Shown piece by piece: positions 9,352 through 48,428 of a stretch of DNA of 64,000 nucleotides. The first letter of the stretch is position 1, and each line of letters begins with the position of its first letter. Under the pieces are notes generated by a model, which was not told the DNA's origin, ran no database searches, and worked only from the letters and a program-made list of their open reading frames with translations. The position numbers and the translations under genes were made by a program. The stretch comes from a virus (Duplodnaviria; Heunggongvirae; Uroviricota; Caudoviricetes), in IMG/VR virus record IMGVR_UViG_3300000976_000008, positions 239,223 through 303,222 of that record. One strand, 5' to 3'.

Positions 9352-9779
9352 GGTTTTTGACCGTTATAGAACATTGAGACAGCATATTGAATCTGCTCAA
9401 ATAGTTCTGGGTTGACATAATCAACTTCGTACGTCCAACCACTAGCAGAAATGGTAACTTTCTCTTTACCAAATGAAACAGTAGCGGTAGCGGATTTCCT
9501 ACCACGATAAGATTGATCGTCTCGGAAGTTAGAATCCTTATTGATGGCCAAATAATCCCCGTTGCGTCTGATACTCATCGTATTCAGCATCATTTGTGAC
9601 AGGTTTTCATTGAGCCAACCGACTATCGCATCGACGAAGCCAGGAGGGGCTGTGCCAGTAAGAAAAGATCCATAGTCAAAATCTGCATATGACTTCCTAG
9701 CGAATGGTCTAACACTTCTTCCAGATCTCTGGTGCATTCTAGTGTAGTCGAGACGTCTCTTTCCGTGATATTGTGTCAT
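9348..9779 (-). CDS. Hypothetical, family A
   Basis: VDYVNPELFEQI. Confidence 0.8.
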   Translation of the reverse strand: MTQYHGKRRLDYTRMHQRSGRSVRPFARKSYADFDYGSFLTGTAPPGFVDAIVGWLNENLSQMMLNTMSIRRNGDYLAINKDSNFRDDQSYRGRKSATATVSFGKEKVTISASGWTYEVDYVNPELFEQIQYAVSMFYNGQKP

Positions 9780-11893
9780 GCTTCCACCAGTGCGGGGAGT
9801 TCCGCTTGTCCGTCCAAAACCTTCTTTAAAAAGTCCAAAGAAATGATCTGGGTGAAGCCGTTCGCGTCAGCATTTTTGGCTTTCGTAGTCATCTGCAGCG
9901 GATCTTTTTGAATTAGAAAGTGTACTGATTTCTTCGACTTCGGAACACTGCTGGCGAAAACTCCACCACGTTCTTCAACATCCGCCATGAACGCTCTTGT
10001 GCCAGTGATGCAGAAAATAAGCCCACTAAAGGGCTTGTCAGCGTCGTCGCCATCCTCAGAAACTATGGGATATGAGATTGTCACTCCGTTACTCATCAGT
10101 TTGTTGATGAGTAGTGACATTTCCTTCATCCCATTGATCACAGCTTCGCGAATTGCATCCCCGAAGCCTTCCATCTTGATTTCTCCCAGTTTCTTGAAAT
10201 CCAACCAGTCGGCTAGGGTATCAAGTTCACCATTGGCGTTCTCGCGGAGGATAATGACCCTTCGGCGACCGAGAAGATCGATTCCGAGTGACCCCAAGAA
10301 TACTTCGAGAGGGAGATGTTTCTTGCCTTGGATATTAGCCACGATTTTGTTGGCTCGTGACTCACCAATTCTCCCGCCGCCTTCGAGTTCCAAGTCTTTG
10401 AGATCATCTGGTTTCAACGTGTAGAGATCAGCAGCATCGCCAATTACTTCGTTGTCCCACATTGCTTTCAGAATGCCATCACCGATGTTGAGGATGCCAA
10501 CGCCTTTCTTTGACGATCCGATCCACTTGTCGATTTTTCCGAGCTTACAATCTGGGCAATTTTGAGGGTCAGTACAGTAGACTACAGCACCTTCTTTGCC
10601 TCTGTAGATCCGCGTTGTAGGTTTACTACAGCTTGGACACGTTTTCGGTTCTTCAATCGGCGTTCTGTTGGTTCCCTTGTTGACGACTCGGATGATCTTG
10701 GGAATGATATCGCCAGCCAAAATCACTTCGACTTCATCTCCAAGTTGCACACCGAGACGCCCAATTTCATCCCAATTGTTCAGAAGACAATTGGAGACAT
10801 TCACCCCACCAATTCGAACTTCTTGCAACCTAGCTGTTGGGATAATTCCTCCCGTGTGGCCAACTGAAATCGCAACACTTTCAAGGATTGTTGTATTAGA
10901 CTTGTGAGGAAATTTGATCGCCCTGGCGTACTTTGGTCGCAGTTTCGTTTTGACGTCATCAGTGATAAACTCTGATTGCAGTTCGAGATCATCGAGGACC
11001 ACTACTAGTCCATCAATCTCAAAGGGTAGATCATCACGACCCGCAACAGTGCTGTCGTAGAATGATTTCAATTGTTCAACTGTGTCGCACATAATATGCG
11101 GAACAGGAAGGAAGCCCATGCTCTTCAGGAACTTCATCTTCTGCTCTTCAGTGTTTGCGAACGTCGGACCGATGACGTCAACATTGAAGGATATGAATGT
11201 CATCTTTTCTGAGTCGACACCATCATCGCGACTAAAAACGCCGTTTCCAACGTTTCGTGGATTGCTTTGACTTTCTTTGGGGATCTTATCAAAGGGCATG
11301 CCAGCATCGCGAGATCGAACGGCCTTGTACTCTTCGATGTACATGACGGCTTCCCCGCGAACATCCATTGTTAATGGTTCGTTCAATTCGAGGGGGAGAT
11401 TTTTGAAGTTAATTCCGTTGACAGTGATATCTTGACCAACGGCACCGTTGCCGCGAGTAGCGACTCGGACCAATTTCCCCTCTTTGTAGGTCGCACAGAT
11501 GCTCCCGCCGTCAACTTTGAGAGAAGCGAAGACACGAGTTGTGGGAGTGGCTACCTGGCTCAACCATGGAGCGTAGCCTGCGATACCGTCATCCGTGTTG
11601 TCGAGAGAACCCATGGGGATTCTATGTTCGACCTTGTTTCGGAGATCTGCGAGATCAAACGGAATTCCTACACGATCTATACGTTCATCGTTTGGAGCGA
11701 GATTCTTCAGTGCTGGACGAAGAAGGTCATATTCAGCATCTGTCAGAATCGGTTCTGAACCAGATCGATAGTAAGCCATGTCGGCTTTGTCGATTAGTTG
11801 GCGAAGTTCATCGATCTTCAGGCGAATTACTGCGTTACCAAATCCATCGTCGTCTTTTCGGAGGGATCGGATTGTTGTGCTGACGTTTGACAT
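9776..11893 (-). CDS. ligA: NAD-dependent DNA ligase
   Basis: YY..DAEYD, KVDG, ATRGNG, VRGEA, NPRN, EIDGLVV, AGDIIPKI, C4 Zn finger, HhH, BRCT (ITGT). Confidence 0.97.
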   Translation of the reverse strand: MSNVSTTIRSLRKDDDGFGNAVIRLKIDELRQLIDKADMAYYRSGSEPILTDAEYDLLRPALKNLAPNDERIDRVGIPFDLADLRNKVEHRIPMGSLDNTDDGIAGYAPWLSQVATPTTRVFASLKVDGGSICATYKEGKLVRVATRGNGAVGQDITVNGINFKNLPLELNEPLTMDVRGEAVMYIEEYKAVRSRDAGMPFDKIPKESQSNPRNVGNGVFSRDDGVDSEKMTFISFNVDVIGPTFANTEEQKMKFLKSMGFLPVPHIMCDTVEQLKSFYDSTVAGRDDLPFEIDGLVVVLDDLELQSEFITDDVKTKLRPKYARAIKFPHKSNTTILESVAISVGHTGGIIPTARLQEVRIGGVNVSNCLLNNWDEIGRLGVQLGDEVEVILAGDIIPKIIRVVNKGTNRTPIEEPKTCPSCSKPTTRIYRGKEGAVVYCTDPQNCPDCKLGKIDKWIGSSKKGVGILNIGDGILKAMWDNEVIGDAADLYTLKPDDLKDLELEGGGRIGESRANKIVANIQGKKHLPLEVFLGSLGIDLLGRRRVIILRENANGELDTLADWLDFKKLGEIKMEGFGDAIREAVINGMKEMSLLINKLMSNGVTISYPIVSEDGDDADKPFSGLIFCITGTRAFMADVEERGGVFASSVPKSKKSVHFLIQKDPLQMTTKAKNADANGFTQIISLDFLKKVLDGQAELPALVEA

Positions 11894-14658: not shown

Positions 14659-14949
14659 CTAGCCAACGCTGATGAAACGATCCCAACGTTTGAGTAATCG
14701 CCTGCCCTCTGCAGTAAGGGCGTGTTCTACATATTTGCGTTCTTCCTGGTAGTAACGCCGCTTAAGAAGCTTGCGAGCAACTAGCCGTGAAGTGTAATTG
14801 CGGAGTGAAGGCATCGGATGTTCGATTCCTTCGGATAGCAATTCCTCTTGCAGATCTGCCATCCCACACCAATCGAATCTGTTAACGACAGATAATACGC
14901 ATACAGCGTTGAAATCAGCTTTACGCAGTGGTTTTGATGTTCTAGGGAT
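14659..14949 (-). CDS. PadR/MarR-type winged-helix regulator, probable ATC start
   Basis: Frame open upstream of Met 14862 to AAGGAG-N6-ATC; SLRNYTSRLVARKLL...ALTAEGRRLL. Confidence 0.65.
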   Translation of the reverse strand: MPRTSKPLRKADFNAVCVLSVVNRFDWCGMADLQEELLSEGIEHPMPSLRNYTSRLVARKLLKRRYYQEERKYVEHALTAEGRRLLKRWDRFISVG

Positions 14950-15298
14950 TTCGGTCTCCTTTGTCTTCTCTATCTCTTTGTTGCAAAAGAGGAATCTTCG
15001 TTAATAGTGCCTCGCAGAAAACGCAGAAATTCTTTGACTGCCCTATATAGTCCTCTGGATCTGCACAATTGAGGCAAAGATCGGCATCATTTACGTAACA
15101 ACCAAATTCAATTTCTGTATCTGTCACAAAATGTGCTTTGATTTCATCATCACTCCAACCTTTTTTGATCAAATCAGCAACAACTTGCTGACAAGAGAAG
15201 ATATCGGAAGCAACATTCTCAGATCGTGCCTTCATGTAATCGTCGTCGCCCAACATCTCAACGGCGAATTTAAGACATTTTAATTCTTCAACACTCAT
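14942..15298 (-). CDS. Hypothetical Cys-rich protein
   Basis: CLNC...CVFC. Confidence 0.75.
   Translation of the reverse strand: MSVEELKCLKFAVEMLGDDDYMKARSENVASDIFSCQQVVADLIKKGWSDDEIKAHFVTDTEIEFGCYVNDADLCLNCADPEDYIGQSKNFCVFCEALLTKIPLLQQRDREDKGDRNP
14978..15004 (-). promoter_or_regulatory. Class I promoter motif
   Basis: TTAAC GAAGATTCCTCTT TTGCAACAA upstream of wHTH gene. Confidence 0.75.
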
Positions 15299-15385: not shown

Positions 15386-16033
15386 TTACGTGTCACTTGG
15401 ACTATACTCCATCATTGTAGGAAGTATCGAAATCTGACTAACTAATTTGGGGGCATTCACACCCACAGCATCTAAGAATAGGCTGATTCTAGATTGCCCA
15501 AAGAAATCAACTAATCTGACTTGGTCGCTTATCTGAGTAAAAACTATGCCTCTAAGGTGGAATTCAGCCAAGTCTGTTGGCCACCGCATACCATATCGCA
15601 ATAGTATATCGATGACATCTTTATCGAATTTGTCTTTCCAAGCATGATCGAAATCTAATGCAAGATCTCGTACTGCCATGTCGAAACAATTTGGCTCAAT
15701 ATACGCATATCGCCTACGATCTATCAATCGAATTTTCGCACCTTCTTTAAGGTGTATCTTTTTCCCATCTTGAAATCTAGTGCTAAAAGCGTGAGGAGAT
15801 ATTAAGAATCCTTCTTCTTCAAAGTCCAAGATCCATAATCGACCATCTGGATCTTGCTGTTCTTGTTTATTCTCATAGAAATCATATTTGTGTTTGAGAA
15901 CCCAAATACTATGATTTCTAGTATTGCCCATAGCCATCTTGAATCGACCAGAATCGAACAATCCAGAAATTAGAGGATTATCTTCTAAAACCGAATTCAA
16001 AGCATCAATTGTGGCAACTTGAAATCTGTTCAT
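15386..16033 (-). CDS. Hypothetical, family A-like
   Basis: YAYIEPNCFDMAV. Confidence 0.75.
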   Translation of the reverse strand: MNRFQVATIDALNSVLEDNPLISGLFDSGRFKMAMGNTRNHSIWVLKHKYDFYENKQEQQDPDGRLWILDFEEEGFLISPHAFSTRFQDGKKIHLKEGAKIRLIDRRRYAYIEPNCFDMAVRDLALDFDHAWKDKFDKDVIDILLRYGMRWPTDLAEFHLRGIVFTQISDQVRLVDFFGQSRISLFLDAVGVNAPKLVSQISILPTMMEYSPSDT

Positions 16034-17613
16034 GGAATAATCATCTTTCCCATGAACAAACGTGATGCAGTTAGACGATAACCCCTATCCATGAAAACAT
16101 CGTCAATAGTCGGATTGAATCGAGCATATCCCCGATGCAAGAGACGGTATTGTAAAAGGTCTCTCTCCATCTTCCAAAGCCAAGTGTCGTCATTTCTTCT
16201 TGAATCAGAAAGATAGGGCTTTACGAGCTTCTCTCCCAAATATTCGATCTGATTATAATCACCAAACCAAACCCCATTTAGCAAGATATGGCAATCAAGA
16301 CTGCTTCTCACATAGGATGGTGAATTATCAGTGTCAACAATACGAATTTCATCATCAACCATTTCTGTATGAAACTCTATTACTTGATCGCCAAATTTCT
16401 CGGACATAATCGGGCTTGATTTTACACCTGGTTTCAAGAAAACAGCGATATCAAGATCAGAATCGGGTTTGGAGTATCCTTTGAGTTTTGACCCAAAAGA
16501 GACAGCAACTGGATAAATGAGATTATGAAGATCTGGATCTGTGACAAGTTCTCGGATCTTTTTGTGATCAGATGCTTCAAAATTCTTGGAGAAATCACCG
16601 CTTAGATCTGGGTATCTTAATCCGAAAGACCCAAGAATCCTCTTGCTGATAAGTCCCAAACTGTGTGCGACAAATAATGCTCGCGATGATTCTTCTCTTG
16701 CTTCTGGAATGGAAGCAAGCCGAAACAAAGGAACTGCTGTCTTTTGAAAAGCTTGCAATACTGAGTAATTGGATTGACGACTAGTAAATTCCAAGTATTG
16801 TCGAATGCCTGAAGCATAGACTCTCGCAGCATTAGTAGTAGTATGCTTTGGTGTATAATCACCACGCAGCGGTTCTACAAGTTTGCTACCTAAAGACTCA
16901 ACTATCTTAGCATCGTTGTCTCGTCTCAACCATTTGAGCCTATTTTGAGACCCTGAATGGCGATGCTCTTTGAAAGCTCGCAAATTGAATTCTAACGCCG
17001 CCCACACATCCAAGTTATCATTTGGATATGAGCGGTTCCGTCTTCTTGGGTTTTTAAATGGTGGTGGATTCTTAGTAGTAATGTGTCTCCTACTATCTGC
17101 GACAACTCCATCATGATCTTGATAATAAGCTAATCGACTAGAGAACCCCTTATTCTTTAGAGTTTCCATCATCATTACCACTTGGCAGATCTTCTCAGGC
17201 ACACACTGTTCAGGAATATCACCATCAATAAAATCTGCTCTAAGGTCTCGATGGTCAAGAAGATTGAAATAAGCTTCGATAACAGCTTCACAAAATGCAA
17301 TCGTTTGGTCGCTACTATCGTGGTACTGTGTAGCATCTGGAATAAGATGCATCGGAAGATATAATAGTAGTCTATTATACCGAATAAGGAATGGTGTCAA
17401 TGCCTCATAAAGTTCATCCATAGCCTTCTTGAATTCCTTGTCTGATGAGAATTCAAGAGGATTTATGTGGAAGTTGACTTTATCAAAACGCCTGAGTAAT
17501 TCACGTCTTTCAGCGAATGTTTCATTATTCTCTTGCGTTTTAAGCATATCCCATATGCCGGTGGAGCCTCTAAAAAGAGACTCCACCGGAGATGCAACAC
17601 TGACGAAGGACAT
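16030..17613 (-). CDS. Pol-beta/MNT-superfamily nucleotidyltransferase domain protein
   Basis: FGSKLKGYSKPDSDLDIAVFL (hGS-x-DhD). Confidence 0.8.
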   Translation of the reverse strand: MSFVSVASPVESLFRGSTGIWDMLKTQENNETFAERRELLRRFDKVNFHINPLEFSSDKEFKKAMDELYEALTPFLIRYNRLLLYLPMHLIPDATQYHDSSDQTIAFCEAVIEAYFNLLDHRDLRADFIDGDIPEQCVPEKICQVVMMMETLKNKGFSSRLAYYQDHDGVVADSRRHITTKNPPPFKNPRRRNRSYPNDNLDVWAALEFNLRAFKEHRHSGSQNRLKWLRRDNDAKIVESLGSKLVEPLRGDYTPKHTTTNAARVYASGIRQYLEFTSRQSNYSVLQAFQKTAVPLFRLASIPEAREESSRALFVAHSLGLISKRILGSFGLRYPDLSGDFSKNFEASDHKKIRELVTDPDLHNLIYPVAVSFGSKLKGYSKPDSDLDIAVFLKPGVKSSPIMSEKFGDQVIEFHTEMVDDEIRIVDTDNSPSYVRSSLDCHILLNGVWFGDYNQIEYLGEKLVKPYLSDSRRNDDTWLWKMERDLLQYRLLHRGYARFNPTIDDVFMDRGYRLTASRLFMGKMIIP

Positions 17614-17616
17614 GGA

Positions 17617-19101
17617 CTAGTCGTCCACTTCTTCGTCGTAGTCTTCGCCGATCCCTTTGAGACGACGTCCGTGAAGTCGAGCGTTGACGTCTTTCTCAAT
17701 ATCTCTCAACTTCTTCGTTCCTTTCGTGCGTCTCACTTTCCCACCGGTAGGAAGATCACCCCATGGGATCTGGCGACCGAGTGCGAAGAGTGTTCCGAAG
17801 TACCGAAGCTCTTCTTCACCCCCTGGAATGTCGTTGGTGCTCATGATGGCCATCAGGAACCTGGTGAGATTCAATTCGAGTCTCTTGTAGGTAGCTGGGA
17901 CATCGAGCTTCAACTTCTTCAGAAGGAGGTCACGAGTTGTGACACCACAGAGCGTCGGAATCCGAGGATTCTGCAGTACCTTCTGGATCGTGTTGGCCTC
18001 GAAAGCGAGAGCCGATGCGACCTGGACTCCTGTCCCACGAAACAGCTTATTGAGCTTATCGTTGACAGATTCAGCCGCATCGCGGAGAATCCCGCAATCT
18101 GGTGGCTGCATCATACCAGGAGGCATCATTCCTCCACCACCAGCACCACCGAGAATCATCGCCATCATTCCGGCAGGATTCCCAGCACCAGCCATCCACG
18201 TCTCCTGCCAACCAGTCAATGCATCGTTGAAGGTCTTGATAGCTGGCCAGAGAGTCTCGCGGATTCGTGAGAGTAGTTCATTGCGACGAGCGTTGGTGAT
18301 GAAAGAACCATCGAGTCCATCAATCGCTTCAAACAAGTCACCGTAGGATCGTCGTTTGAGTTGCTTTCGCAACGCGAAGAATTCTTTGGAAGCGAGTTCT
18401 TCCGTGACCTCAATGTGTGCTTCCATCGCCGCGACAATCGTCTCAGGAACGTCGTACAAACCGACGCTATCAGCTAATGCAGCCTTGACCGCAGTGACAA
18501 CGATTGAATGCCCGATCTGAGGGTTCAGAACTCCACCAGTGCGAAGAGAATCCAACCAAGAACTGTCATCCGGAACATTTGGGAGCAAACTCCCAAAGTC
18601 TAACGCCGCTGTTGCATTGGTCGCCGCTGTCGCTGCAGTTGCCGTAACTGCATCTGCACGTTCAGAAGCACCATTGAGATCTTTGACGATACGTCTCGCT
18701 TTGAGAACCGGAATTTCCATCCCGGTCAGATCAGATTCAGTCAGTGAACTGAGATCTGCAACAGTCTCAGCACCGAGAGCCTTAATCTTCTCAATCTTAT
18801 CCGCACCAAGACCAAGCCCTGTGAGCTTTTCTGTGATCTCGCACACCATAGTAGCCGTACCTCCTGACCCTTCTCCTGTAACGACAGCACCGCTCGCACC
18901 GTCTCCTGTAACGACGGCACCACTCGTGCTGCCAACCAAATCGATGATGTCTTCCCCACCACCGCCAGTTCCGAAGAAGTCTGGCAAGCCATCTTCACCA
19001 GTTGGAATCTTCGCTGCTTCGGTGGATGTGGGTTCTTCTGACTCAGGAGCCGACTCTACAACTTCGGGCTTCTCTTCGTCGTCTTTCTTCTCTTCAGCCA
19101 T
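17617..19101 (-). CDS. Hypothetical protein with acidic N-terminus and HhH/SAM-like subdomain
   Basis: LGADKIEKIKALGAETVADLSSLTESDL; SGAVVTG repeat; GAGGT RBS. Confidence 0.8.
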   Translation of the reverse strand: MAEEKKDDEEKPEVVESAPESEEPTSTEAAKIPTGEDGLPDFFGTGGGGEDIIDLVGSTSGAVVTGDGASGAVVTGEGSGGTATMVCEITEKLTGLGLGADKIEKIKALGAETVADLSSLTESDLTGMEIPVLKARRIVKDLNGASERADAVTATAATAATNATAALDFGSLLPNVPDDSSWLDSLRTGGVLNPQIGHSIVVTAVKAALADSVGLYDVPETIVAAMEAHIEVTEELASKEFFALRKQLKRRSYGDLFEAIDGLDGSFITNARRNELLSRIRETLWPAIKTFNDALTGWQETWMAGAGNPAGMMAMILGGAGGGGMMPPGMMQPPDCGILRDAAESVNDKLNKLFRGTGVQVASALAFEANTIQKVLQNPRIPTLCGVTTRDLLLKKLKLDVPATYKRLELNLTRFLMAIMSTNDIPGGEEELRYFGTLFALGRQIPWGDLPTGGKVRRTKGTKKLRDIEKDVNARLHGRRLKGIGEDYDEEVDD

Positions 19102-19103
19102 GG

Positions 19104-20519
19104 TTACCTCGCAAATTGAGTTTCTTGTTCGGTAGGCCCGAACGAAATTAAGTGGATTGGGATATCTAGACGACTAAGCATTTCCCGATTGCATAATCGC
19201 AACAATTCATCTGTCGAGGTATGTGCCATATCAATTGTTTTAAATTCTGGCACACATTTCTCTAAGAAAGAACCCAATTCTTGTTGGTACTTTCTTCTCC
19301 GAACATTCTCTGCTGGATCAATTGAAAGCAATTTTCCATCAGATATGAAACGGTGTGATTTTTCAAGCTGTGAAGGCTCGTTAAATTTGTATTTTTCGCA
19401 AATTTCCCATTTGCCAGTCTCATGAATATCGTCGCACCAAGTTAGAGCAATCCCATCAATATCAACTCCACAATTCTCTACTGCATAACGGAGTAGCATA
19501 AAATCTAAAGGGCCGACTCTCACCTTACCCTGATAGCGATTCTCATTCTTATGACTGCCAGGTGCTAACTTCTCCGTCATATCTTCACAATGAGTAGGCA
19601 TTGGGCCAGCACCATGACGAACACTATATGCCCTATGTACCCCAATGTTGACAATTTCACCATTATAATCAAATTGGCGAAGATAATCGGTTACAAATGT
19701 AGGCAATGTACGAATAGCACTCACATGGGGATGAAATCCAAGTGCATTATCTGTCAAAATGCCGTGTGAACTCTCAATTACAACATCGCCATCTTGGGCA
19801 AGAATCTGGCGAATATGATCGCCTTCTACCACGTTTAATTTCTCACCAACTTCTCTGAATCGTTCAATGTTGTGCTTCAAAAAACCCGGATCGTAAAGCA
19901 GGTTCAATTCGATTTGAATCAACTCCCGATCTTCATCAGTAATATCAACGACAAGTTCTTGGCCCAATTTAGAGGTTTTGGCAATGTAGTAGTCCCGAAG
20001 TCTACTCAATTTATTGCTGAGATTATGGAACTTCGAACCATCTCTCAAATCAGAGGCTCTAATTGTCAGATCTGGTTGAACATTTCGAATTCTATGAGCA
20101 ACACCAACTCCAGTCCCAACAGTGCCTCTAGGAGTAGTCCTAGTTAATTCTGTAATCCTTGAGAATATGCCATGGTAGGGGGTGGCACATAATGCTGATT
20201 CATCTACAGTCAACAAATCGAAAGCATTAGTGATACCTATATATCTCAAGCAATCAGCTTCTTTTAACATCCCTGTGGGACTAATTATCATCAGGGGTGT
20301 TATGTGTGTTTTGATTCCCTCAAGTGTTCCGCAACCCCATTGGCTGAAGCAGAACTTTGTTCGCTTATTCTGTGCACCGTGTTGACCCTGTGCACCACCG
20401 ATTTTTACAACGGTGTGGGGATGATGGCGGCAACAGAGTGCATGTATAGCACCCCCTTTGCCGCCATCGCCTGGCCCCAAATCGAAAATTGAAAAGACTC
20501 GATCAGTCATCAGATCCAA
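19104..20519 (-). CDS. Divergent adenylosuccinate synthetase-like (PurA family) ligase
   Basis: DLGPGDGGKG, GGAQGQHG, ESSHGILTD, RAYSVRHGAGPMPT, RVGPLD, ISFGPT. Confidence 0.85.
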   Translation of the reverse strand: MDLMTDRVFSIFDLGPGDGGKGGAIHALCCRHHPHTVVKIGGAQGQHGAQNKRTKFCFSQWGCGTLEGIKTHITPLMIISPTGMLKEADCLRYIGITNAFDLLTVDESALCATPYHGIFSRITELTRTTPRGTVGTGVGVAHRIRNVQPDLTIRASDLRDGSKFHNLSNKLSRLRDYYIAKTSKLGQELVVDITDEDRELIQIELNLLYDPGFLKHNIERFREVGEKLNVVEGDHIRQILAQDGDVVIESSHGILTDNALGFHPHVSAIRTLPTFVTDYLRQFDYNGEIVNIGVHRAYSVRHGAGPMPTHCEDMTEKLAPGSHKNENRYQGKVRVGPLDFMLLRYAVENCGVDIDGIALTWCDDIHETGKWEICEKYKFNEPSQLEKSHRFISDGKLLSIDPAENVRRRKYQQELGSFLEKCVPEFKTIDMAHTSTDELLRLCNREMLSRLDIPIHLISFGPTEQETQFAR

Positions 20520-21658
20520 GTATCTCGCTCTTCGTCGTCATCCTCATCTTCGCCATCTTCTTCAGCTTCTTCGACGCTTGAACTTGAGATTGGCCAAATG
20601 TTGGTATCTTCCCAAACATCTGGTTTCTCTGCGAAGAAATCGCCCTTCATCGGTCGCCGATCAAAGTTCGGCAACTGAGCCTGTGCACCAAGAGGAATAT
20701 CGACCAGAGCCTCCATGATGGTTTCGGCTGCTGCTTCGTCAACATTCATCCTTGTCAGGAATGTTACCACTTCTTGCGGTTCGATGACTCCTTCAGTCAG
20801 ACCAATTATTGCGGCCTGAGTCTGAGGAATCCATTTGGCGTGAGGAATCGGCACGACACGTTCTTTGCCGCAGTGTTCATTCCAGAAACGTTTCGCAGAA
20901 CTACTGTTCCTAACGACAATGATGAAAGCATGTGCTTCTTCGAGAAGATCGTTCCAGATCGTCTCAAGTTCCATGCTGCCACCATTGTGCTTGATTTGGT
21001 GGCCGTTTTCACTGACTTTGGTGAAAACTTCATCGCCGAAGGTCCGTTTCAAAGTCTTGTCATCAACTCGCCCACGGCCAGGTGCATCCGTGACTGTGAA
21101 GTCATAACGCTTGAGGCCGATTCGATTAATGTAAGATCTAACCAAGTACGCACCACCGAAGATCCCCACATCAGGATCTTCAGCAGGATCTCCGCCGCCT
21201 CGCTCTGGTACCATCTGTGTGAGTTGGTTGACAATCTTATCAGCAACCATTTCAAATGGTGGTCTGCAAAGAACGAAATCATCGACGACGTCACCGAAGA
21301 TTCCTGTGGAAGCTTGGATATCGTAGTCTTCGAGAACTTCTTTCCAGTATTCGAAGGCATTTGGAAGCACTTCCAAGGCAGTATCGACACTGTCACCCAT
21401 ACTGCTCGTCGAATCGAAGCGTGTTTCGATTGGAATAGGAGTACCAACCAGCAACTTCCAGCCACCATCTTCCTTACCAACTCGTGGAAGTGATAGCCGA
21501 GTTACTCCGAATTCTGCAGGGTCAACGATAGGCTGCAGCTTACCAGTCTTCTTGGCTTGCTGTTCAGCCTTTTTTGTTACCCCTTTCGATCCGCGAGTTA
21601 CACCAACGCTCGCCAAAGCGGCAGTGTATGTCTCTTTTGTTAAAAAACTGTCACCCAT
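20510..21658 (-). CDS. vWA-like (MIDAS) protein
   Basis: FDSTSSMG, GIFGD, GGGDPAEDP, VTDAP. Confidence 0.75.
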   Translation of the reverse strand: MGDSFLTKETYTAALASVGVTRGSKGVTKKAEQQAKKTGKLQPIVDPAEFGVTRLSLPRVGKEDGGWKLLVGTPIPIETRFDSTSSMGDSVDTALEVLPNAFEYWKEVLEDYDIQASTGIFGDVVDDFVLCRPPFEMVADKIVNQLTQMVPERGGGDPAEDPDVGIFGGAYLVRSYINRIGLKRYDFTVTDAPGRGRVDDKTLKRTFGDEVFTKVSENGHQIKHNGGSMELETIWNDLLEEAHAFIIVVRNSSSAKRFWNEHCGKERVVPIPHAKWIPQTQAAIIGLTEGVIEPQEVVTFLTRMNVDEAAAETIMEALVDIPLGAQAQLPNFDRRPMKGDFFAEKPDVWEDTNIWPISSSSVEEAEEDGEDEDDDEERDTWI

Positions 21659-21659
21659 C

Positions 21660-22556
21660 CTAAACCTCATGCGTCTTGAAAGGATAAAAACCTGGCTCCC
21701 AGACAGAGGCTGGGTTTGATTGCAAGGCTCTTACCGTTTGGTAGAAATTAGTATGTGCCCTCTGTGCGTCATCTTCTCTGCCTCTTGCCAAATAGCTTAT
21801 GTATTCAGTATAAGAGTTATCGTGCGGCGTTTCGTGGGCGAATGCCAGATTATGTCCATTATCTGCACCACCAACCACCTTAATAATACATCTGGCGGCT
21901 TTGCTTATATCCCCCTTCTTATTCTTAGAGGATAGATTAGTATGAACCTCGGCTTCGGACCAGTTGAACAACATGACGAAATGTTGATCGCGTTCGATCA
22001 AGACATTGTTGCCGAAAACGTTGTTAACTTGGATATTTTGCATGTGAGCGAAGTGAATCAGTTTCAGCAGCTTCCCAAAAATCCAAGCACTAGTTCTTAA
22101 ATCAACTCTAAGACCAGCTTTTGGGATCTTGATCAAAGGAACCATTGTAGAAACATCATCGACTGCTTTGAAAGCGATGACACTGACTTGTCGTCGATCG
22201 GACAACACAATGGTCTCTACGATTTCTGGGAACATGAAATCGTAATTGTATGGGACGTCGTGGTCACCGCTATCGATCTTATCAGAAAACATATGCATCT
22301 TGCGAAGAATAATTTCTTGCTTCGCAATTTCAGCGTTGTAGCTAGGATCGAGAGCCACTAACAGGAGAAGATTTCTTCCCGAACTATCTGTGCACTTCCG
22401 AATGCGATAGCTCTTTGTTTCAGCTACTACTTTCCCAATATTGTATTCATCAATGCGTCGCGATCGGCGATCCGCTTTGACAGATCCTTTTGATCCTTTT
22501 CGAGATCTTTTTTGCATTTCTTCAATTCTCGCCGTGTTTGGTTGATCTTTAGCCAT
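21660..22556 (-). CDS. Protein-kinase-fold protein, probably pseudokinase
   Basis: WIFGKLLKLIHFAHMQNIQVNNVFGNNVLIE...LFNWS (degenerate HRD/DFG). Confidence 0.65.
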   Translation of the reverse strand: MAKDQPNTARIEEMQKRSRKGSKGSVKADRRSRRIDEYNIGKVVAETKSYRIRKCTDSSGRNLLLLVALDPSYNAEIAKQEIILRKMHMFSDKIDSGDHDVPYNYDFMFPEIVETIVLSDRRQVSVIAFKAVDDVSTMVPLIKIPKAGLRVDLRTSAWIFGKLLKLIHFAHMQNIQVNNVFGNNVLIERDQHFVMLFNWSEAEVHTNLSSKNKKGDISKAARCIIKVVGGADNGHNLAFAHETPHDNSYTEYISYLARGREDDAQRAHTNFYQTVRALQSNPASVWEPGFYPFKTHEV

Positions 22557-23829: not shown

Positions 23830-24156
23830 TTATCCCCGGTTTTTTATTTGTGCCCTCAAAGAGCAGGTGATGCAAGAGACCGAGTGGGCCGGTCCCATGC
23901 AAGAGTTACATTCGCTGCATTTCGCAAGATGGGGTCTGTTGCACTTTCCTTGGCAGATTCCGCATCTTCCTGTGTCTGTTTCATCAAAACCAAGCTTCTC
24001 TAAGAGAACTGCTTTGACGATTTCTGATGTTGTAGTGTGGTCGTAATCTTCGACAGACCCACCACGAACTTGGTGACTGCGGAATCTCACCGCTTCGGCG
24101 AGATCCCGCTTTGCCACTTCGTCAGCAATCTCTTGAATTGCTTCTTCGAGATTCAT
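23830..24156 (-). CDS. Hypothetical Cys-rich protein
   Basis: Three CxxC; TAATG overlap. Confidence 0.75.
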   Translation of the reverse strand: MNLEEAIQEIADEVAKRDLAEAVRFRSHQVRGGSVEDYDHTTTSEIVKAVLLEKLGFDETDTGRCGICQGKCNRPHLAKCSECNSCMGPAHSVSCITCSLRAQIKNRG

Positions 24157-25589
24157 TACTGGTTGACCTTCATCCGCACTGTGTGACCCCAACCAGGACC
24201 ATCGGTCTGACCTTCAGGAGTCGTGATGACAGTAATCAGAGGGAACCCACATGGCTTATGCCATCCAGTGTAACCGTCTGTCAGCATCACCGTACAGTCT
24301 GGGACCTGCTTGTTTTCCATCAACCAGTCGATTGGACCGACCATGTCAGTTCCGCCACGTCCATTGACAGTCAACCGCTTCCAATCGCCGCGACGGTACT
24401 TTTCGAATCCTTGGAAGGCAGCATCCCATTGGAGGATGGTGATCTTGGCCTTACTACTCAAAGACTCAATCTCTGCGAAGAATTGCTCAAGCTCACGCTT
24501 ACCAATTGATCCGGAAGTGTCGATGATGACGCAAACTGTGGCTGCTGCATGATGAGAGACGCCAGCAATTCCAAAGTGACGTCGACGTCGGTTGCGACGG
24601 CTGTAAGTCTTGCGACTATTGCCGACATGCTTGCCAAGGTATTGTCGGATCAACTCACGCCATCGGATGATTGGCTTGCCAAGTTCGGCGATTGCTTCTT
24701 CTAGGTGTGAGGGGACATGGCCTTGACACTTTTCAGTAGCTTGATCGACGATATCCTTGACGAGTTGTCGTGCTTCGTCTTCGGAGACGTCGGACATGTT
24801 CCAAGTCGAATGGTCGTCGATGACCTTTCCGGAGACACCGCCAAATGAATAGGAGTCACCACCAGATTGGCCACATGCTCCACACTGGGATTCGTCACCA
24901 CCGCCGCCACTGCCATCCTGTTCTTCTTCACCTTGACCGCTACCACTGCCGCCACTGCTGCCCTGGCCGTCATCATCCTCTTCTTCCCCTTTGCCCTTTC
25001 CGCCTTTTCCTTTGCCTTTCATGGGTCGTCCGCACTGTCCGCAGCACTTACCACCCTGCGACTTTTCGAGCTTGTCGTAGTACCATTCCGTGGTTTGGTC
25101 GTGTGGCCAATCCTCAGGAATCCAGATGATATTCCCCTTCAGAGGGACTACCATTTCACTGGATTGTGGTTCGTGGTACCCGATTCGTGGGTTTTGCTTG
25201 GTACCGTTGACGCACATATCGGCGGCAATATTCCAAGCTTCTGGGTTTCGGTGACTGTTGCGAATGCAGTGGCAGCGAACAATGTGTTCGATTTCGTGCT
25301 GGATGACCGCGAACAATTCTTTGAGATTCAGTTTGTCAACGAATGGGGGGTAGTAAATACATTGCACGTCGTGTCCGTTGACGATTCGAACGCCCATTGT
25401 TCGCTGTTGTTCTGGCAACCAAGGCATATTGGATGGAACCCAAGTCATACCCATGGCGACGTGCCCGTACCATGGTTCTCGTGTCATCAGACGACACCGG
25501 GCATTCATCAAACGCTCCGATTGTTCGGCTGTGACCTTTGCTCTGGATGATTTGCGTGCAACCATGTTCGTCGTCTTTGTACCTACCAC
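24156..25589 (-). CDS. DUF2201-type metallopeptidase-like + vWA domain protein (MoxR partner)
   Basis: HEIEHIVRCH, WNIAADMCVN, IDDHSTW, IIDTSGSI, GRGGTD, MLTDGY. Confidence 0.9.
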   Translation of the reverse strand: MVGTKTTNMVARKSSRAKVTAEQSERLMNARCRLMTREPWYGHVAMGMTWVPSNMPWLPEQQRTMGVRIVNGHDVQCIYYPPFVDKLNLKELFAVIQHEIEHIVRCHCIRNSHRNPEAWNIAADMCVNGTKQNPRIGYHEPQSSEMVVPLKGNIIWIPEDWPHDQTTEWYYDKLEKSQGGKCCGQCGRPMKGKGKGGKGKGEEEDDDGQGSSGGSGSGQGEEEQDGSGGGGDESQCGACGQSGGDSYSFGGVSGKVIDDHSTWNMSDVSEDEARQLVKDIVDQATEKCQGHVPSHLEEAIAELGKPIIRWRELIRQYLGKHVGNSRKTYSRRNRRRRHFGIAGVSHHAAATVCVIIDTSGSIGKRELEQFFAEIESLSSKAKITILQWDAAFQGFEKYRRGDWKRLTVNGRGGTDMVGPIDWLMENKQVPDCTVMLTDGYTGWHKPCGFPLITVITTPEGQTDGPGWGHTVRMKVNQ

Positions 25590-26130: not shown

Positions 26131-27486
26131 TTATTCGTCGCTTGACGTTCCCCAAGAGACTCGGGAAAGTGCGTCTTGCAGTTCAGGTCGTTCAGTCAGA
26201 CGATCGATGAACGTCTTCTTGGTGTTACCGGACCGCTTGTTGAACTTCGAGATCATCTTGGCGAGTCGAGGATTCGAGATCACCGCTGCTCGTGCCTTCT
26301 CCTGTTGATCTCCAGGGTTATCACCGCTGACCAAGGCTCGGCAGAATGCGACAACCACATCCTTATCGTTGGCGTGGTCCACCATGAAACTGGCGAAGTC
26401 GAGGCAGACTTCTGCTGTCTTATCGTCTTCGGTCTTGTTCTTGGCGAAACTGACCAGACCCCACATGAGACCAGTCAACTGGTTTCGGTTCAGCTTCTTC
26501 AGCTTCCCTTCGAAAGGCTTGACACCACGGTTGATCAACTCACGAGGCTTGACCGGGCAAGAATGTCGTGAGTAAGATCGGGCAAGCTCTCGACCGACCA
26601 GACCACCGATAACCTCTTCTTTCGCCAGGTCTGAAAAACCCTTGTTGGCAGCAGTCGCGGCTTCCACCTTCGTCACGGATTCCCATGATCGCCGGGAAGG
26701 TTGGACCGAGAATCCGAGTTCACCAGCAATGTCGCCATCAAGGTGCTTCACATTCTGTGAGGCGAATTCGATGACTCCTGCAGCGTCTCCACCGTGCTTG
26801 TCGGCCATGAAGTTGACCCACTCTTCGAGAGTCGTTTCGCCACCGGAAAGTGTCAGGTGGACGAATCGGTCGAGGAATGCCGCATCGTTGAAGCCGGAAA
26901 CTTGGTAGCCTTCCATGTAGTTACCGGCAGCAACAACTTGCCAGCCTGGTGGCAAGACGTACTGACCAACTCGTCGGTCGAGAACCAACTGGAAGATCGC
27001 CTGCAGAACATCGTCCTGGGCACGGTTCACTTCGTCGATGAAGAGGATACCGTTCTGGAATCGCGGCTGGATTTTCTGCAGCTTCTCGTAGTACAACCGT
27101 TCGGTTTCGAGATCTGCCTTCTCCAGAGCCTTTGCGATGGCGACTGGTGCATCCTTGACCTTCTTCGCATCGATGTCGAGAAGTTCGCAGAGTTCCGCTG
27201 TCACGTCTTCGGTCGTCATGTCACCAACTGGCATGTCGGCTGGCGGCAAGTAGTGAGTGCGATAATCGTCTTCGATGCCGAGATTGACACCGGTCTCAGG
27301 GAGACCTCGAACATCGGATGCTTCCAACTGAGAACATCGTAGGTCCAAGAAACCCATGCCGTTTTCGGCGGCGAGTTGTTGGACGAGACTTGACTTACCA
27401 AGCCCTCGGTGGCCCCAAATGAACGGTGTGATTCCCGCAAGACCACAAATCTGAACTGCTTCTTTGAGGATCGAAATCTTCGCCAT
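26131..27486 (-). CDS. MoxR-type AAA+ ATPase
   Basis: Walker A GHRGLGKS, Walker B ILFIDEVNRA, AAGN, AFLDRF, PSRRSW. Confidence 0.92.
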   Translation of the reverse strand: MAKISILKEAVQICGLAGITPFIWGHRGLGKSSLVQQLAAENGMGFLDLRCSQLEASDVRGLPETGVNLGIEDDYRTHYLPPADMPVGDMTTEDVTAELCELLDIDAKKVKDAPVAIAKALEKADLETERLYYEKLQKIQPRFQNGILFIDEVNRAQDDVLQAIFQLVLDRRVGQYVLPPGWQVVAAGNYMEGYQVSGFNDAAFLDRFVHLTLSGGETTLEEWVNFMADKHGGDAAGVIEFASQNVKHLDGDIAGELGFSVQPSRRSWESVTKVEAATAANKGFSDLAKEEVIGGLVGRELARSYSRHSCPVKPRELINRGVKPFEGKLKKLNRNQLTGLMWGLVSFAKNKTEDDKTAEVCLDFASFMVDHANDKDVVVAFCRALVSGDNPGDQQEKARAAVISNPRLAKMISKFNKRSGNTKKTFIDRLTERPELQDALSRVSWGTSSDE

Positions 27487-47711: not shown

Positions 47712-48217
47712 GAGAGGCTCCTGGGATAGAATTGGTTCAGAGATCAAATACGTGAAAGGCTCGCAGCAAATTATCACTGCGAGCCTTTCTAGCATTATTG
47801 GGCGGGGATCATGGAGCCTTCATGTTGATTATCTTTGGCTCTTACCCCTATAACATTCTCTTTTATTTTCTTTTTATTTGAAACTTTTCTTTTCTTGGTC
47901 TCTTTGACTTGCTCTTGGTCTCTTTGACTTCTCTCAGCGTCTCTGTCTCTCTAAGATACTTTCCCAAACTTCTTTCTGCGAGATGTCGGCCATCCAGAAG
48001 TTTGAGAGGCGGGGTCATAGGGCACTCTGGCCATTCAGCCGCTTAGTGTGCCCTCACCCTTTTATACCTTCACGGGTGGGTGGTGCTCTCGTTCTCATTT
48101 AGTAAGCCTCGCAATTCATTAATGCCTAAGTTCTAATGAGTCATCAGCCCGGCGATCACAGTATCACCCCGAACCTCGTCGCCGCCGTAGCGGACTTCCA
48201 CACTTCGAATACATGAG

Positions 48218-48292
48218 AGGGGCCAGGGGGATTCGAACCCCCGACGAACGCTGGTTTGAAATCAGCCGCTCTGACCACTGAGCTATGGCCCC
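48218..48292 (-). tRNA. tRNA with UCA anticodon (opal suppressor), copy 1
   Basis: GGGGCCA TA GCTC AGTGGTCA GAGC G GCTGA TT-TCA-AA CCAGC GTTCGTC GGGGG TTCGAAT CCCCC TGGCCCC T. Confidence 0.9.
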
Positions 48293-48303
48293 TTGATACC
48301 AAT

Positions 48304-48330
48304 TTGTTGCGAAAAGAGAAACCCCGTTAA
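48304..48330 (-). promoter_or_regulatory. Class I promoter motif driving tRNA(UCA) copy 1
   Basis: TTAAC-N13-TCGCAACAA, 11 nt before tRNA 5' end. Confidence 0.75.
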
Positions 48331-48351
48331 TTTATATTTTACTACATTAAG

Positions 48352-48428
48352 CAGGGCCAGGGGGATTCGAACCCCCGCAAGACAGGAATTTGAAATTCCC
48401 CGCTCTAGCCAGACTGAGCTATGGCCCC
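48352..48428 (-). tRNA. tRNA with UCA anticodon (opal suppressor, Trp-like G73), copy 2
   Basis: GGGGCCA TA GCTC AGTCTGGCTA GAGC G GGGAA TT-TCA-AA TTCCT GTCTTGC GGGGG TTCGAAT CCCCC TGGCCCT G. Confidence 0.9.

What the first reader, a model, noticed from the sequence alone, without database searches (positions are those of the whole stretch)
16030..22556. Pseudokinase - vWA - re-specified PurA - HhH protein - nucleotidyltransferase operon
Five tightly coupled genes. The PurA homolog keeps catalytic Asp and His equivalents (GDGGKG, GQHG), but relative to E. coli PurA the IMP loop (GTT to GTV), Q224 (to H), the aspartate-binding loop (GATTGRRRR to ENRYQGKVR) and the GTP-specificity TKLD (to TWCD) are changed, so it is probably neither PurA nor PurZ. 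Inference: a nucleotide-amine ligase making a modified nucleotide/signal or a protein conjugate, with vWA and pseudokinase as regulators and a Pol-beta NTase as partner; a possible conflict or anti-defence module.
Basis: partly seen in the sequence, partly recalled or inferred. Interest (0 to 1): 0.75.

Follow-up and report, generated by a model that had tools for sequence, protein, structure and literature searches.

The report
Phage copy of vWA-coupled PurA-like cassette
A 408-kb phage carries an intact five-gene set built around a relative of the purine enzyme PurA that has lost its aspartate pocket. The same set recurs in ultrasmall bacteria and, in a shorter three-gene form, in many large phages, and I found no paper that says what it does.

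Summary
Five tightly coupled minus-strand genes at 16030-22556 encode a kinase-like protein without catalytic residues, a vWA/MIDAS protein, a PurA-like enzyme, a SAM/(HhH)2-plus-helical protein and a Pol-beta nucleotidyltransferase.

The PurA-like enzyme keeps the catalytic Asp, Lys and His and the guanine-specificity Asp. It has lost every aspartate-binding residue and two IMP 5'-phosphate contacts. These changes are family traits, not peculiar to this phage.

The same five genes occur together in most of about 150 Patescibacteria and metagenome loci. The core of pseudokinase, vWA and PurA-like genes also occurs in Bxz1-type mycobacteriophages and in about 57 of 62 IMG/VR loci. It is neither housekeeping PurA nor PurZ: canonical PurA coexists with it, PurB is usually missing, and it has Asp where PurZ has Ser.

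The cassette is accessory (2 of 301 sampled Patescibacteria). It is repeatedly flanked by NAD-salvage, Nudix or NrtR and ADP-ribosylglycohydrolase genes. Pairwise fusions of g1-g2, g2-g3 and g3-g4 suggest a complex.

The function is unknown. My best guess is a GTP-driven purine-C6 ligase that uses a non-aspartate amine and is linked to NAD/ADP-ribose stress or phage-host conflict. This scan has already found the cassette on other DNA (notes from at least 107 genomes). I found no paper describing it.

The parts
21660..22556 (-). g1: kinase-fold protein (298 aa) lacking the conserved catalytic Lys, HRD Asp and DFG Asp, so a pseudokinase. It has no J-domain.
   Evidence: phrog_3043 'kinase' 6.5e-7. 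Family profile vs CK2 kinases 2.9e-5. hhalign 98.9% to the Pleione gp265 kinase. Alignment A2 shows no conserved catalytic residues.
20510..21658 (-). g2: vWA/MIDAS protein. The true start is probably the Met-Gly at 21658. It has a conserved N-terminal motif G-x-x-[ST]-[FWY], an acidic tail and a terminal W-I.
   Evidence: AF2 pLDDT 85.5, pTM 0.89. Foldseek hits to integrin beta-I, SpaC and NorD vWA, E 1e-5. DxTxS at D86/T88/S90 is invariant. SD-like GAGG lies before the second ATG.
19104..20510 (-). g3: PurA-like P-loop ligase (468-471 aa) with catalytic residues kept and the aspartate pocket lost.
   Evidence: PF00709 1.4e-33. All NCBIfam PurA equivalog models score far below cut-off, 80 vs 445 bits. 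Residue map against E. coli PurA. Tree.
17617..19101 (-). g4: low-complexity N-terminus, a SAM/(HhH)2-like domain (about residues 83-154) and an all-helical domain with a Gly/Met-rich loop and no recognisable fold.
   Evidence: SAM_TNK in 14 of 21 homologues and HHH_5 in 7 of 21. AF2 pLDDT 71.8. VIA Z 8.4 to the NusA acidic-repeat domain and 7-7.7 to SAM domains. Foldseek found nothing for the helical part.
16030..17613 (-). g5: Pol-beta-superfamily nucleotidyltransferase (527 aa) with an unassigned helical N-terminal region. It is co-directional here but convergent in most bacterial loci.
   Evidence: Polbeta PF18765 in 23 of 24 family members and NTP_transf_2 in 22 of 24. G374, S375, D386 and D388 are invariant. 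Nearest solved sequences are the HI0073/MntA-type minimal NTase and GLD-2.
15386..16033 (-). Sixth ORF (215 aa), translationally coupled to g5 by an ATGA overlap. It is an orphan and not part of the conserved cassette.
   Evidence: ORF list. No Pfam or PHROG hit. Only itself among 5.8 billion proteins. Absent from all related loci.

Best explanation
The five genes are a phage-borne copy of a conserved, horizontally mobile accessory cassette. Its core is a heteromeric enzyme formed by the PurA-like protein g3 and the vWA/MIDAS protein g2, joined by the pseudokinase g1 and, in this five-gene type, by the SAM/(HhH)2-helical protein g4.

Proposed reaction. g3 most likely still performs the first half of the PurA reaction: GTP-dependent phosphorylation of the 6-oxo group of a hypoxanthine or guanine nucleotide. 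It then lets an amine other than aspartate displace the phosphate, giving an N6-substituted adenine-type nucleotide or conjugate.

Reasoning from the pocket. The aspartate pocket has changed from cationic to aromatic and hydrophobic, so the nucleophile is probably neutral or peptide-like. Two 5'-phosphate contacts are gone, so the purine substrate may carry more than a simple 5'-phosphate.

Other parts. The Pol-beta nucleotidyltransferase g5 is an add-on of the five-gene type. It may nucleotidylate the product or a partner.

Biological role. Gene context ties the cassette to NAD breakdown and ADP-ribose sensing. In the phage it would act during infection, when NAD is consumed, for example under NAD-depleting host immunity.

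Shown: gene set, folds, residue pattern, conservation, fusions, context. Inferred: complex formation, retained GTP/6-oxopurine chemistry, the nature of the nucleophile, the NAD-related role.
For: - Catalytic D13, K16 and H41 and GTP-base contacts D333, S414 and G416 are invariant across 77 five-gene-type and about 30 phage-type sequences. T301, R303 and R305 (Asp site) and T129 and R143 (IMP 5'-phosphate) are replaced in all of them. T300 becomes Y/W/F and R305 becomes V/I/L.
- The five genes occur together in most loci, and the flanks are not conserved.
- A g2-like gene lies directly upstream of the PurA-like gene in about 57 of 62 IMG/VR loci. In Mycobacterium phage Pleione, gp265, gp266 and gp268 are the g1, g2 and g3 homologues.
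- In-frame fusions exist for g1-g2 (P0161), g2-g3 (L133) and g3-g4 (P0122).
- It is not housekeeping: canonical PurA coexists in 2 of 5 genomes, purB was found in 1 of 5, and the cassette is in only 2 of 301 sampled Patescibacteria.
- NAD context: PncA, PncB, NadD, NadE and ADP-ribosylglycohydrolase flank the cassette in 9 of 82 genome loci. NAMPT is near the trio in 4 phage loci. A true NrtR (NUDIX + NrtR_WHD, 4.7e-13) lies directly upstream in jumbo-phage contig L023, and Nudix proteins lie near 7 more loci.
- All family-invariant residues are intact in the phage copies.
Against: - There is no biochemical datum for any member. Substrate, nucleophile and product are all inferred.
- This phage genome itself has no NAMPT/NAPRT, NMNAT or ADP-ribosylglycohydrolase and only a distant Nudix. 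The NAD link is therefore seen only in relatives. It covers about 11% of bacterial loci, some of them related to each other.
- I could not reproduce an NrtR operator upstream of g1. The enriched TTGACA is simply a -35 box.
- Loss of the 5'-phosphate contacts rests on an alignment at 25-30% identity. The R143 column is the least certain.
- Complex formation is inferred from fusions and synteny, not shown.
Confidence: 0.5

Rival explanations
1. Protein purinylation. The nucleophile is the free alpha-amine of the vWA partner's own N-terminus (Gly after Met removal). g3 would then covalently join a purine nucleotide through C6 to g2, making a nucleotide-tagged protein rather than a free metabolite.
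For: - In PurA the nucleophile is an alpha-amine.
- The g2 family N-terminus is conserved even between clades that share about 20% identity: M-G in 57% and M-A or M-S in 22% of 91 full-length 50%-cluster representatives, followed by x-x-[ST]-[FWY].
- The g3 pocket became aromatic and hydrophobic.
- g2 is the one obligate partner.
Against: - In a g1-g2 fusion (P0161) the g2 N-terminal motif is absent and not free.
- The first residue is not always Gly.
- The C-terminus ([W/R/K]-[L/F/I]) is just as conserved, so conserved termini may only be docking elements.
- An earlier check in this scan priced this reading at 14/100.
Confidence: 0.15
2. Split-site adenylosuccinate synthetase. g3 still uses aspartate or another acidic amino acid, but the carboxylates are now held by the metal of the vWA MIDAS site instead of R303/T301. 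The pair would then be a regulated AMP-salvage enzyme.
For: - MIDAS sites bind Asp or Glu carboxylates (established for integrins).
- R143, which comes from the second subunit of the PurA dimer, is lost, so a partner could complete the site.
- The MIDAS DxTxS is invariant.
Against: - purB was found in only 1 of 5 carrier genomes.
- Canonical PurA coexists in 2 of 5.
- The pocket became hydrophobic rather than merely losing arginines.
- The cassette is rare and accessory.
Confidence: 0.1
3. DNA or nucleotide-pool modification in the manner of PurZ. The enzyme would make a non-canonical purine deoxynucleotide that ends up in virion DNA and protects it from restriction.
For: - The PurA superfamily already contains PurZ.
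- The cassette sits in large lytic phages.
- g4 has an (HhH)2-like domain that could bind DNA.
- An intein interrupts the PurA-like gene of L037.
Against: - g3 has Asp where PurZ has Ser14 (10.1101/2025.10.22.683976).
- The guanine-specificity Asp for the phosphate donor is kept.
- None of the flanking genes scanned matched an HD or MazG domain, i.e. no DatZ or MazZ.
- The same cassette lives in the chromosomes of Patescibacteria among NAD genes.
Confidence: 0.08
4. No ligase chemistry. The PurA-like protein has become a GTP-binding switch or scaffold in a vWA and pseudokinase signalling complex.
For: - The PurA fold belongs to the P-loop NTPases.
- The partners, a vWA protein and a pseudokinase, are typical signalling or scaffold proteins.
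- The substrate pockets are heavily remodelled.
Against: - The residues needed only for chemistry on the purine (D13, H41) are invariant across very divergent clades.
- New invariant residues line the old pocket (V273->H, G298->N, T301->Q). This argues for a conserved new substrate rather than decay.
Confidence: 0.1

Closest known systems
Adenylosuccinate synthetase PurA (EC 6.3.4.4; E. coli, PDB 1ADE/1KJX/1CG1)
   Same: Same fold and family (PF00709). P-loop GDxGKG with the catalytic Asp, catalytic His41, guanine-specificity Asp333 and the S414/G416 contacts.
   Different: T301, R303 and R305 (aspartate) and T129 and R143 (IMP 5'-phosphate) are replaced. It scores 80 bits against equivalog cut-offs of 368-700. 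It coexists with a canonical PurA, occurs without PurB, and always travels with a vWA protein.
PurZ of diaminopurine (dZ) phages (PhiVC8, S-2L)
   Same: A phage-borne, re-specified member of the PurA superfamily.
   Different: PurZ has Ser at the PurA D13 position, still uses aspartate, and sits with DatZ, MazZ and DpoZ. g3 has Asp at that position, has no aspartate site, has no Z-cluster neighbours, and forms a separate clade together with other vWA-linked proteins.
Bixzunavirus (Bxz1-type) mycobacteriophage genes annotated 'kinase', 'hypothetical protein' and 'PurA-like adenylosuccinate synthetase' (Pleione gp265, gp266, gp268)
   Same: Homologous trio in the same order (hhalign 98.9% and 98.7%; tblastn 30% identity for the PurA-like protein).
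   Different: There is no g4 or g5, and a small extra ORF lies between the vWA and PurA-like genes. Q224 is kept as Gln in the phage-type clade. The function is equally unknown.
TerY-P triad (vWA + Ser/Thr kinase + PP2C phosphatase)
   Same: Pairing of a MIDAS vWA protein with a kinase-fold protein in an accessory module.
   Different: No PP2C phosphatase. The kinase-fold protein lacks catalytic residues. The central enzyme is a PurA-like ligase, which the triad does not have.
Phage NAD+ reconstitution pathways (NARP1: Adps + Namat; NARP2: NAMPT + NMNAT)
   Same: Phage-borne and found next to NAMPT or NrtR in some relatives. Activating an oxygen and displacing it with a nitrogen nucleophile is chemistry of the same general logic.
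   Different: No homology to any NARP enzyme. This phage has no NAMPT or NMNAT. No evidence that NAD is the product.

Membership tests
PurA (adenylosuccinate synthetase, EC 6.3.4.4) | P-loop GDxGKG with catalytic Asp13 and Lys16, and catalytic His41 | tested here: met
   D18, K21 and H47 in g3. They are invariant in 77 five-gene-type rows and in all aligned phage-type rows.
PurA (adenylosuccinate synthetase, EC 6.3.4.4) | Aspartate-binding loop (T300, T301, R303, R305) | tested here: not met
   The equivalents are Y329, Q330, a deletion and V333. The same pattern holds across the whole vWA-linked clade.
PurA (adenylosuccinate synthetase, EC 6.3.4.4) | IMP 5'-phosphate contacts T129 and R143 (from the second subunit) | tested here: not met
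   T129 -> V134 (I/V/C in the family). The R143 column is acidic. The alignment is less certain at R143.
PurA (adenylosuccinate synthetase, EC 6.3.4.4) | Guanine specificity (K331, D333, S414, G416) | tested here: inconclusive
   D363, S459 and G461 are kept, and K331 -> W361. Nucleotide preference was not measured.
PurA (adenylosuccinate synthetase, EC 6.3.4.4) | Scores above the curated equivalog cut-offs | tested here: not met
   The best score is 80.1 bits against a cut-off of 445 (NF010355). TIGR00184 gives 65.5 against 395.6.
PurA (adenylosuccinate synthetase, EC 6.3.4.4) | Acts as the genome's AMP-branch enzyme together with PurB | tested here: not met
   A canonical PurA (378-408 bits) coexists in 2 of 5 carrier genomes. 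purB was found in 1 of 5. The genomes may be incomplete.
PurZ (2-aminoadenylosuccinate synthase of dZ phages) | [quoted passage not shown] | tested here: not met
   g3 has Asp18. The PurZ feature is taken from 10.1101/2025.10.22.683976.
PurZ (2-aminoadenylosuccinate synthase of dZ phages) | Z-cluster neighbours (DatZ HD phosphohydrolase, MazZ, DpoZ) | tested here: not met
   Pfam found no HD or MazG domain in the 18 flanking and cassette proteins scanned. The whole genome was not scanned for them.
vWA domain with MIDAS (g2) | vWA alpha/beta fold | tested here: met
   AF2 pLDDT 85.5. Foldseek PDB: 97 hits at E <= 1e-3, led by integrin beta-I, SpaC and NorD vWA. No Pfam vWA model hits any of the 20 members.
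vWA domain with MIDAS (g2) | MIDAS DxSxS-type motif | tested here: met
   D86-x-T88-x-S90 is invariant in A3 and recurs as DVTGS in the phage-type relatives. Metal binding was not tested.
Active protein kinase (g1) | Kinase fold | tested here: inconclusive
   The profile matches only the catalytic-loop region of CK2 (2.9e-5, 44 residues). phrog_3043 hits at 6.5e-7. No structure was predicted.
Active protein kinase (g1) | Conserved beta3 Lys, HRD Asp and DFG Asp | tested here: not met
   None of the invariant or near-invariant columns of A2 is one of these. The catalytic-loop Asp position is V/I, and the 'FDW' Asp is variable.
Pol-beta superfamily nucleotidyltransferase (g5) | hG[GS] ... DxD catalytic motif | tested here: met
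   G374, S375, D386 and D388 are invariant in 24 sequences. PF18765 hits 23 of 24 members.
TerY-P triad | PP2C phosphatase partner and an active kinase | tested here: not met
   No PP2C in the cassette or its flanks. The kinase-like protein lacks catalytic residues.
NARP1/NARP2 NAD+ reconstitution | Adps+Namat or NAMPT+NMNAT encoded by the phage | tested here: not met
   No PF04095 or PF01467 match in the 408-kb genome. Adps and Namat were not searched for directly.

The most novel reading that the evidence does not exclude
The vWA and PurA-like pair is a new kind of enzyme system. It would use PurA chemistry (GTP-activated C6 of a purine) either to attach a nucleotide to a protein amine, namely the partner's conserved N-terminus, or to rebuild or disarm an NAD/ADP-ribose-derived nucleotide when NAD is being destroyed. 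That would give large phages and ultrasmall bacteria a previously unknown arm of the NAD-centred conflict.
Probability: 0.25. Interest if true: 0.9.

Novelty: new variant of a known kind. Interest (0 to 1): 0.68.

Why it matters
PurZ showed that one changed pocket in the PurA fold can rewrite a phage's DNA alphabet. Here a second and much larger branch of the same fold has swapped its amino-acid pocket and gained an obligate vWA partner. The partner family alone has 790 clusters at 50% identity.

This branch occurs in hundreds of large phages, including the easily handled Bxz1-type mycobacteriophages, and in Patescibacteria. No function has been described for it. Its repeated placement among NAD-salvage, NrtR/Nudix and ADP-ribosylglycohydrolase genes makes it a concrete candidate for a missing step in NAD-centred phage-host conflict, or for a new nucleotide-protein modification.

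The phage copy reported here shows that the full five-gene bacterial type, not only the three-gene phage type, moves between cells and megaphages.

Tried and rejected
- blastn of the region against phage records gave no match.
- A single-sequence scan of IMG/VR found nothing. The alignment-based scan did.
- PADLOC gave only weak NTase-motif hits and no known defence system.
- Pfam found no vWA model for any g2 member. The fold had to be shown by structure.
- Profile searches of g2 and g4 against PDB sequences gave nothing useful. Foldseek and the Atlas gave nothing for the g4 helical domain. ClyA/YaxB-like rows at Z 5.8 are within the noise for helical proteins.
- NrtR operator: the enriched 8-mers upstream of g1 are the sigma-70 -35 box TTGACA. 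My palindrome pattern was no commoner upstream of g1 than elsewhere in the loci, so I make no operator claim.
- The promoter and terminator scan of the phage region was at shuffle level.
- The weak OTT_1508 deaminase hit of ORF 14942-15298 was rejected. The protein has CxxC...CxxC and no HxE motif.
- The longer-protein search gave one fusion only.
- Sequencing runs: the only holder is the probable source sample (algae metagenome), and no RNA holder is listed.
- Five literature searches found no description.
- Host assignment from the cassette was rejected. In the tree the phage g3 sits at the unresolved base of the five-gene clade on a long branch.

Full report
**What is in the window**

The window is part of a 408,349-bp IMG/VR phage record. 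It has 8 tRNA genes, including two with a UCA anticodon. Five ORFs run head to tail on the minus strand between 16030 and 22556:
- g1: 21660-22556
- g2: 20510-21670
- g3: 19104-20519
- g4: 17617-19101
- g5: 16030-17613

The junctions are overlaps or gaps of 1-3 nt. Reading the DNA and the homologues moves the g2 start to the ATG at 21658 (Met-Gly...), which has a GAGG about 8 nt upstream. g3 probably starts at the ATG at 20510. A sixth ORF (15386-16033) overlaps the g5 stop by ATGA. It has no relative among 5.8 billion proteins and is absent from all related loci.

**The enzyme g3**

g3 matches Pfam Adenylsucc_synt (1.4e-33) and phrog_1211. It scores 80 bits or less against NCBIfam PurA equivalog models whose cut-offs are 368-700.

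I aligned 111 family members with E. coli PurA, taken from NC_000913.3.
- Kept in every vWA-linked sequence: D13, K16, H41, D333, S414 and G416.
- Changed in every vWA-linked sequence: N38 -> Q, T129 -> I/V/C, V273 -> H, G298 -> N, T300 -> Y/W/F, T301 -> Q, R303 deleted, R305 -> V/I/L. The R143 column is acidic.
- Changed only in the five-gene clade: Q224 -> H and K331 -> W.

The changes are fixed traits of a large family, and the guanine-specificity Asp of TKLD is kept. The residues needed for chemistry on a 6-oxopurine and for GTP binding survive. The cationic aspartate pocket has become aromatic and hydrophobic.

PurZ has Ser where PurA has D13 (10.1101/2025.10.22.683976). g3 has Asp, so it is not PurZ.

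**The neighbours**

- g2 has no Pfam hit in any of 20 homologues. Its AF2 model (pLDDT 85.5, pTM 0.89) matches integrin beta-I, SpaC and NorD vWA domains (Foldseek E 1e-5, 97 hits at 1e-3 or better). D86-x-T88-x-S90 is an invariant MIDAS motif.
- g1 is kinase-like (phrog_3043; family profile vs CK2 2.9e-5). None of its conserved columns is the beta3 Lys, the HRD Asp or the DFG Asp. It is therefore a pseudokinase.
- g4 has a SAM/(HhH)2-like domain: SAM_TNK in 14 of 21 homologues and HHH_5 in 7 of 21, VIA Z 8.4 to the NusA acidic repeat and 7-7.7 to SAM domains. This is followed by an all-helical domain with a Gly/Met-rich loop and no recognisable fold.
- g5 carries the Pol-beta NTase motif (G374, S375, D386 and D388 invariant; PF18765 in 23 of 24 members). 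Its nearest solved sequences are minimal MntA/HI0073-type NTases and GLD-2.

**Conservation**

g3 has more than 1000 homologues at 45-53% identity, mostly from Patescibacteria MAGs.

In 80 genome loci and 2 IMG/VR loci the commonest layout is g1 g2 g3 g4 followed by a convergent g5. This was the layout in 26 loci, and most of the rest were truncated versions at contig ends or my crude ORF calls. No flanking gene is conserved. A metagenome scan gave the same picture in 71 more loci.

Four of those metagenome loci (L148, L150, L151, L162) have g5 co-directional. L148, L150 and L151 also have a short g5, as in this phage, and L150 and L151 overlap in sequence. L148, L150 and L151 are also its closest relatives for g2 (60%) and g4 (56%). 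L148 and L151 are flanked by HNH endonuclease, polynucleotide kinase, NTase and tRNA-methyltransferase-like genes typical of large phages.

The core is far wider:
- In Mycobacterium phage Pleione (Bixzunavirus), gp265 'kinase', gp266 and gp268 'PurA-like' are homologues of g1, g2 and g3 (hhalign 98.9% and 98.7%).
- In about 57 of 62 IMG/VR loci with a PurA-like gene, a g2-like gene lies just upstream. About 20 also have a recognisable kinase-like gene.
- A profile of g2 finds 790 clusters at 50% identity in 1.84 billion proteins.

A tree rooted on two canonical Patescibacteria PurA proteins puts all vWA-linked proteins in one clade (SH-aLRT 100). The five-gene type forms a sub-clade (100). The phage protein sits at its unresolved base on a long branch.

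**Not housekeeping**

Of five carrier genomes, two also have a canonical PurA (378-408 bits against 92-119 for the cassette protein). Only one has a purB match. The g2 profile was found in only 2 of 301 sampled genomes of the phylum, one of which was the query genome. The cassette is therefore accessory and sporadic.

**Signs of a complex**

In-frame fusions exist for three adjacent pairs:
- g1-g2: P0161, 679 aa
- g2-g3: L133:8460-10706, 748 aa
- g3-g4: P0122, 859 aa

Both ends of g2 are conserved across clades that share only about 20% identity. The N-terminus is M-G (57%) or M-A/M-S (22%), followed by x-x-[ST]-[FWY]. The C-terminus is [W/R/K]-[L/F/I].

**Context**

Among recurrent non-cassette neighbours in the genome loci, five of ten are NAD genes: PncA, PncB, NadD-like, NadE and ADP-ribosylglycohydrolase. 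They flank the cassette on one or both sides in 9 of 82 loci.

In phage loci I found:
- NAMPT (4 loci), Ro60/TROVE-vWA (6 loci) and an intein inside one PurA-like gene
- a true NrtR (NUDIX + NrtR_WHD) directly upstream of the trio in a 398-kb phage contig, and Nudix proteins near 7 further loci

This reproduces in part a lead from earlier notes of this scan. I could not reproduce an NrtR operator. This phage itself has no NAMPT/NAPRT, NMNAT or ARH. Its nearest NAD-related gene is an NAD-dependent DNA ligase 4 kb downstream.

**Reading**

The evidence supports a heteromeric, GTP-dependent ligase that still activates C6 of a 6-oxopurine nucleotide but couples it to something other than aspartate. 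It appears to work in an accessory module tied to NAD/ADP-ribose turnover.

What the nucleophile is remains unknown. It could be a small neutral amine, the partner's N-terminus, or an acid held on the MIDAS metal. The rivals are scored in the Rival explanations section.

I found no paper on the cassette. The scan has noted it before in at least 107 genomes.

Noticed in passing
window 24156-25589 and 26131-27486 (minus strand): Just upstream of the cassette lies a second vWA-containing pair: a DUF2201 metallopeptidase with a VWA-like domain (4.9e-26 and 9.8e-21) and an AAA+ ATPase (AAA_5/AAA_16). This looks like a MoxR-vWA type module.
   Followed up: no
window 9776-11893 (minus strand): An NAD-dependent DNA ligase (adenylation domain 6e-38, OB domain 2.6e-21) lies 4 kb downstream. 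It is the only NAD-using gene seen near the cassette in this phage.
   Followed up: no
L037:3403-5925 (IMG/VR contig): The PurA-like gene of this phage contig is interrupted by an intein with a LAGLIDADG homing endonuclease. NAMPT lies 3 kb upstream.
   Followed up: no
L023:6965-7747 (398-kb IMG/VR contig): A bona fide NrtR (NUDIX plus the NrtR winged-helix domain) is encoded directly upstream of the phage-type trio.
   Followed up: partly
L009:13067-14602 and five other IMG/VR loci: A Ro60/TROVE-vWA protein lies about 3 kb downstream of the PurA-like gene in six phage loci.
   Followed up: no
window 48217-48428: Two tRNAs with a UCA anticodon (readers of UGA) are present in a phage that otherwise reads in the standard code. 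Earlier notes of the scan already treat this.
   Followed up: no
window 17617-19101, g4 residues about 60-100: The phage g4 has an N-terminal low-complexity extension with a repeated GAVVTGDGASGAVVTG stretch that bacterial homologues lack.
   Followed up: no
L162 (metagenome contig WBZN01001419.1): Five ORFs appear to be inserted between g2 and g3 of an otherwise co-directional cassette. This may be a real insertion or an artefact of my ORF calling.
   Followed up: no
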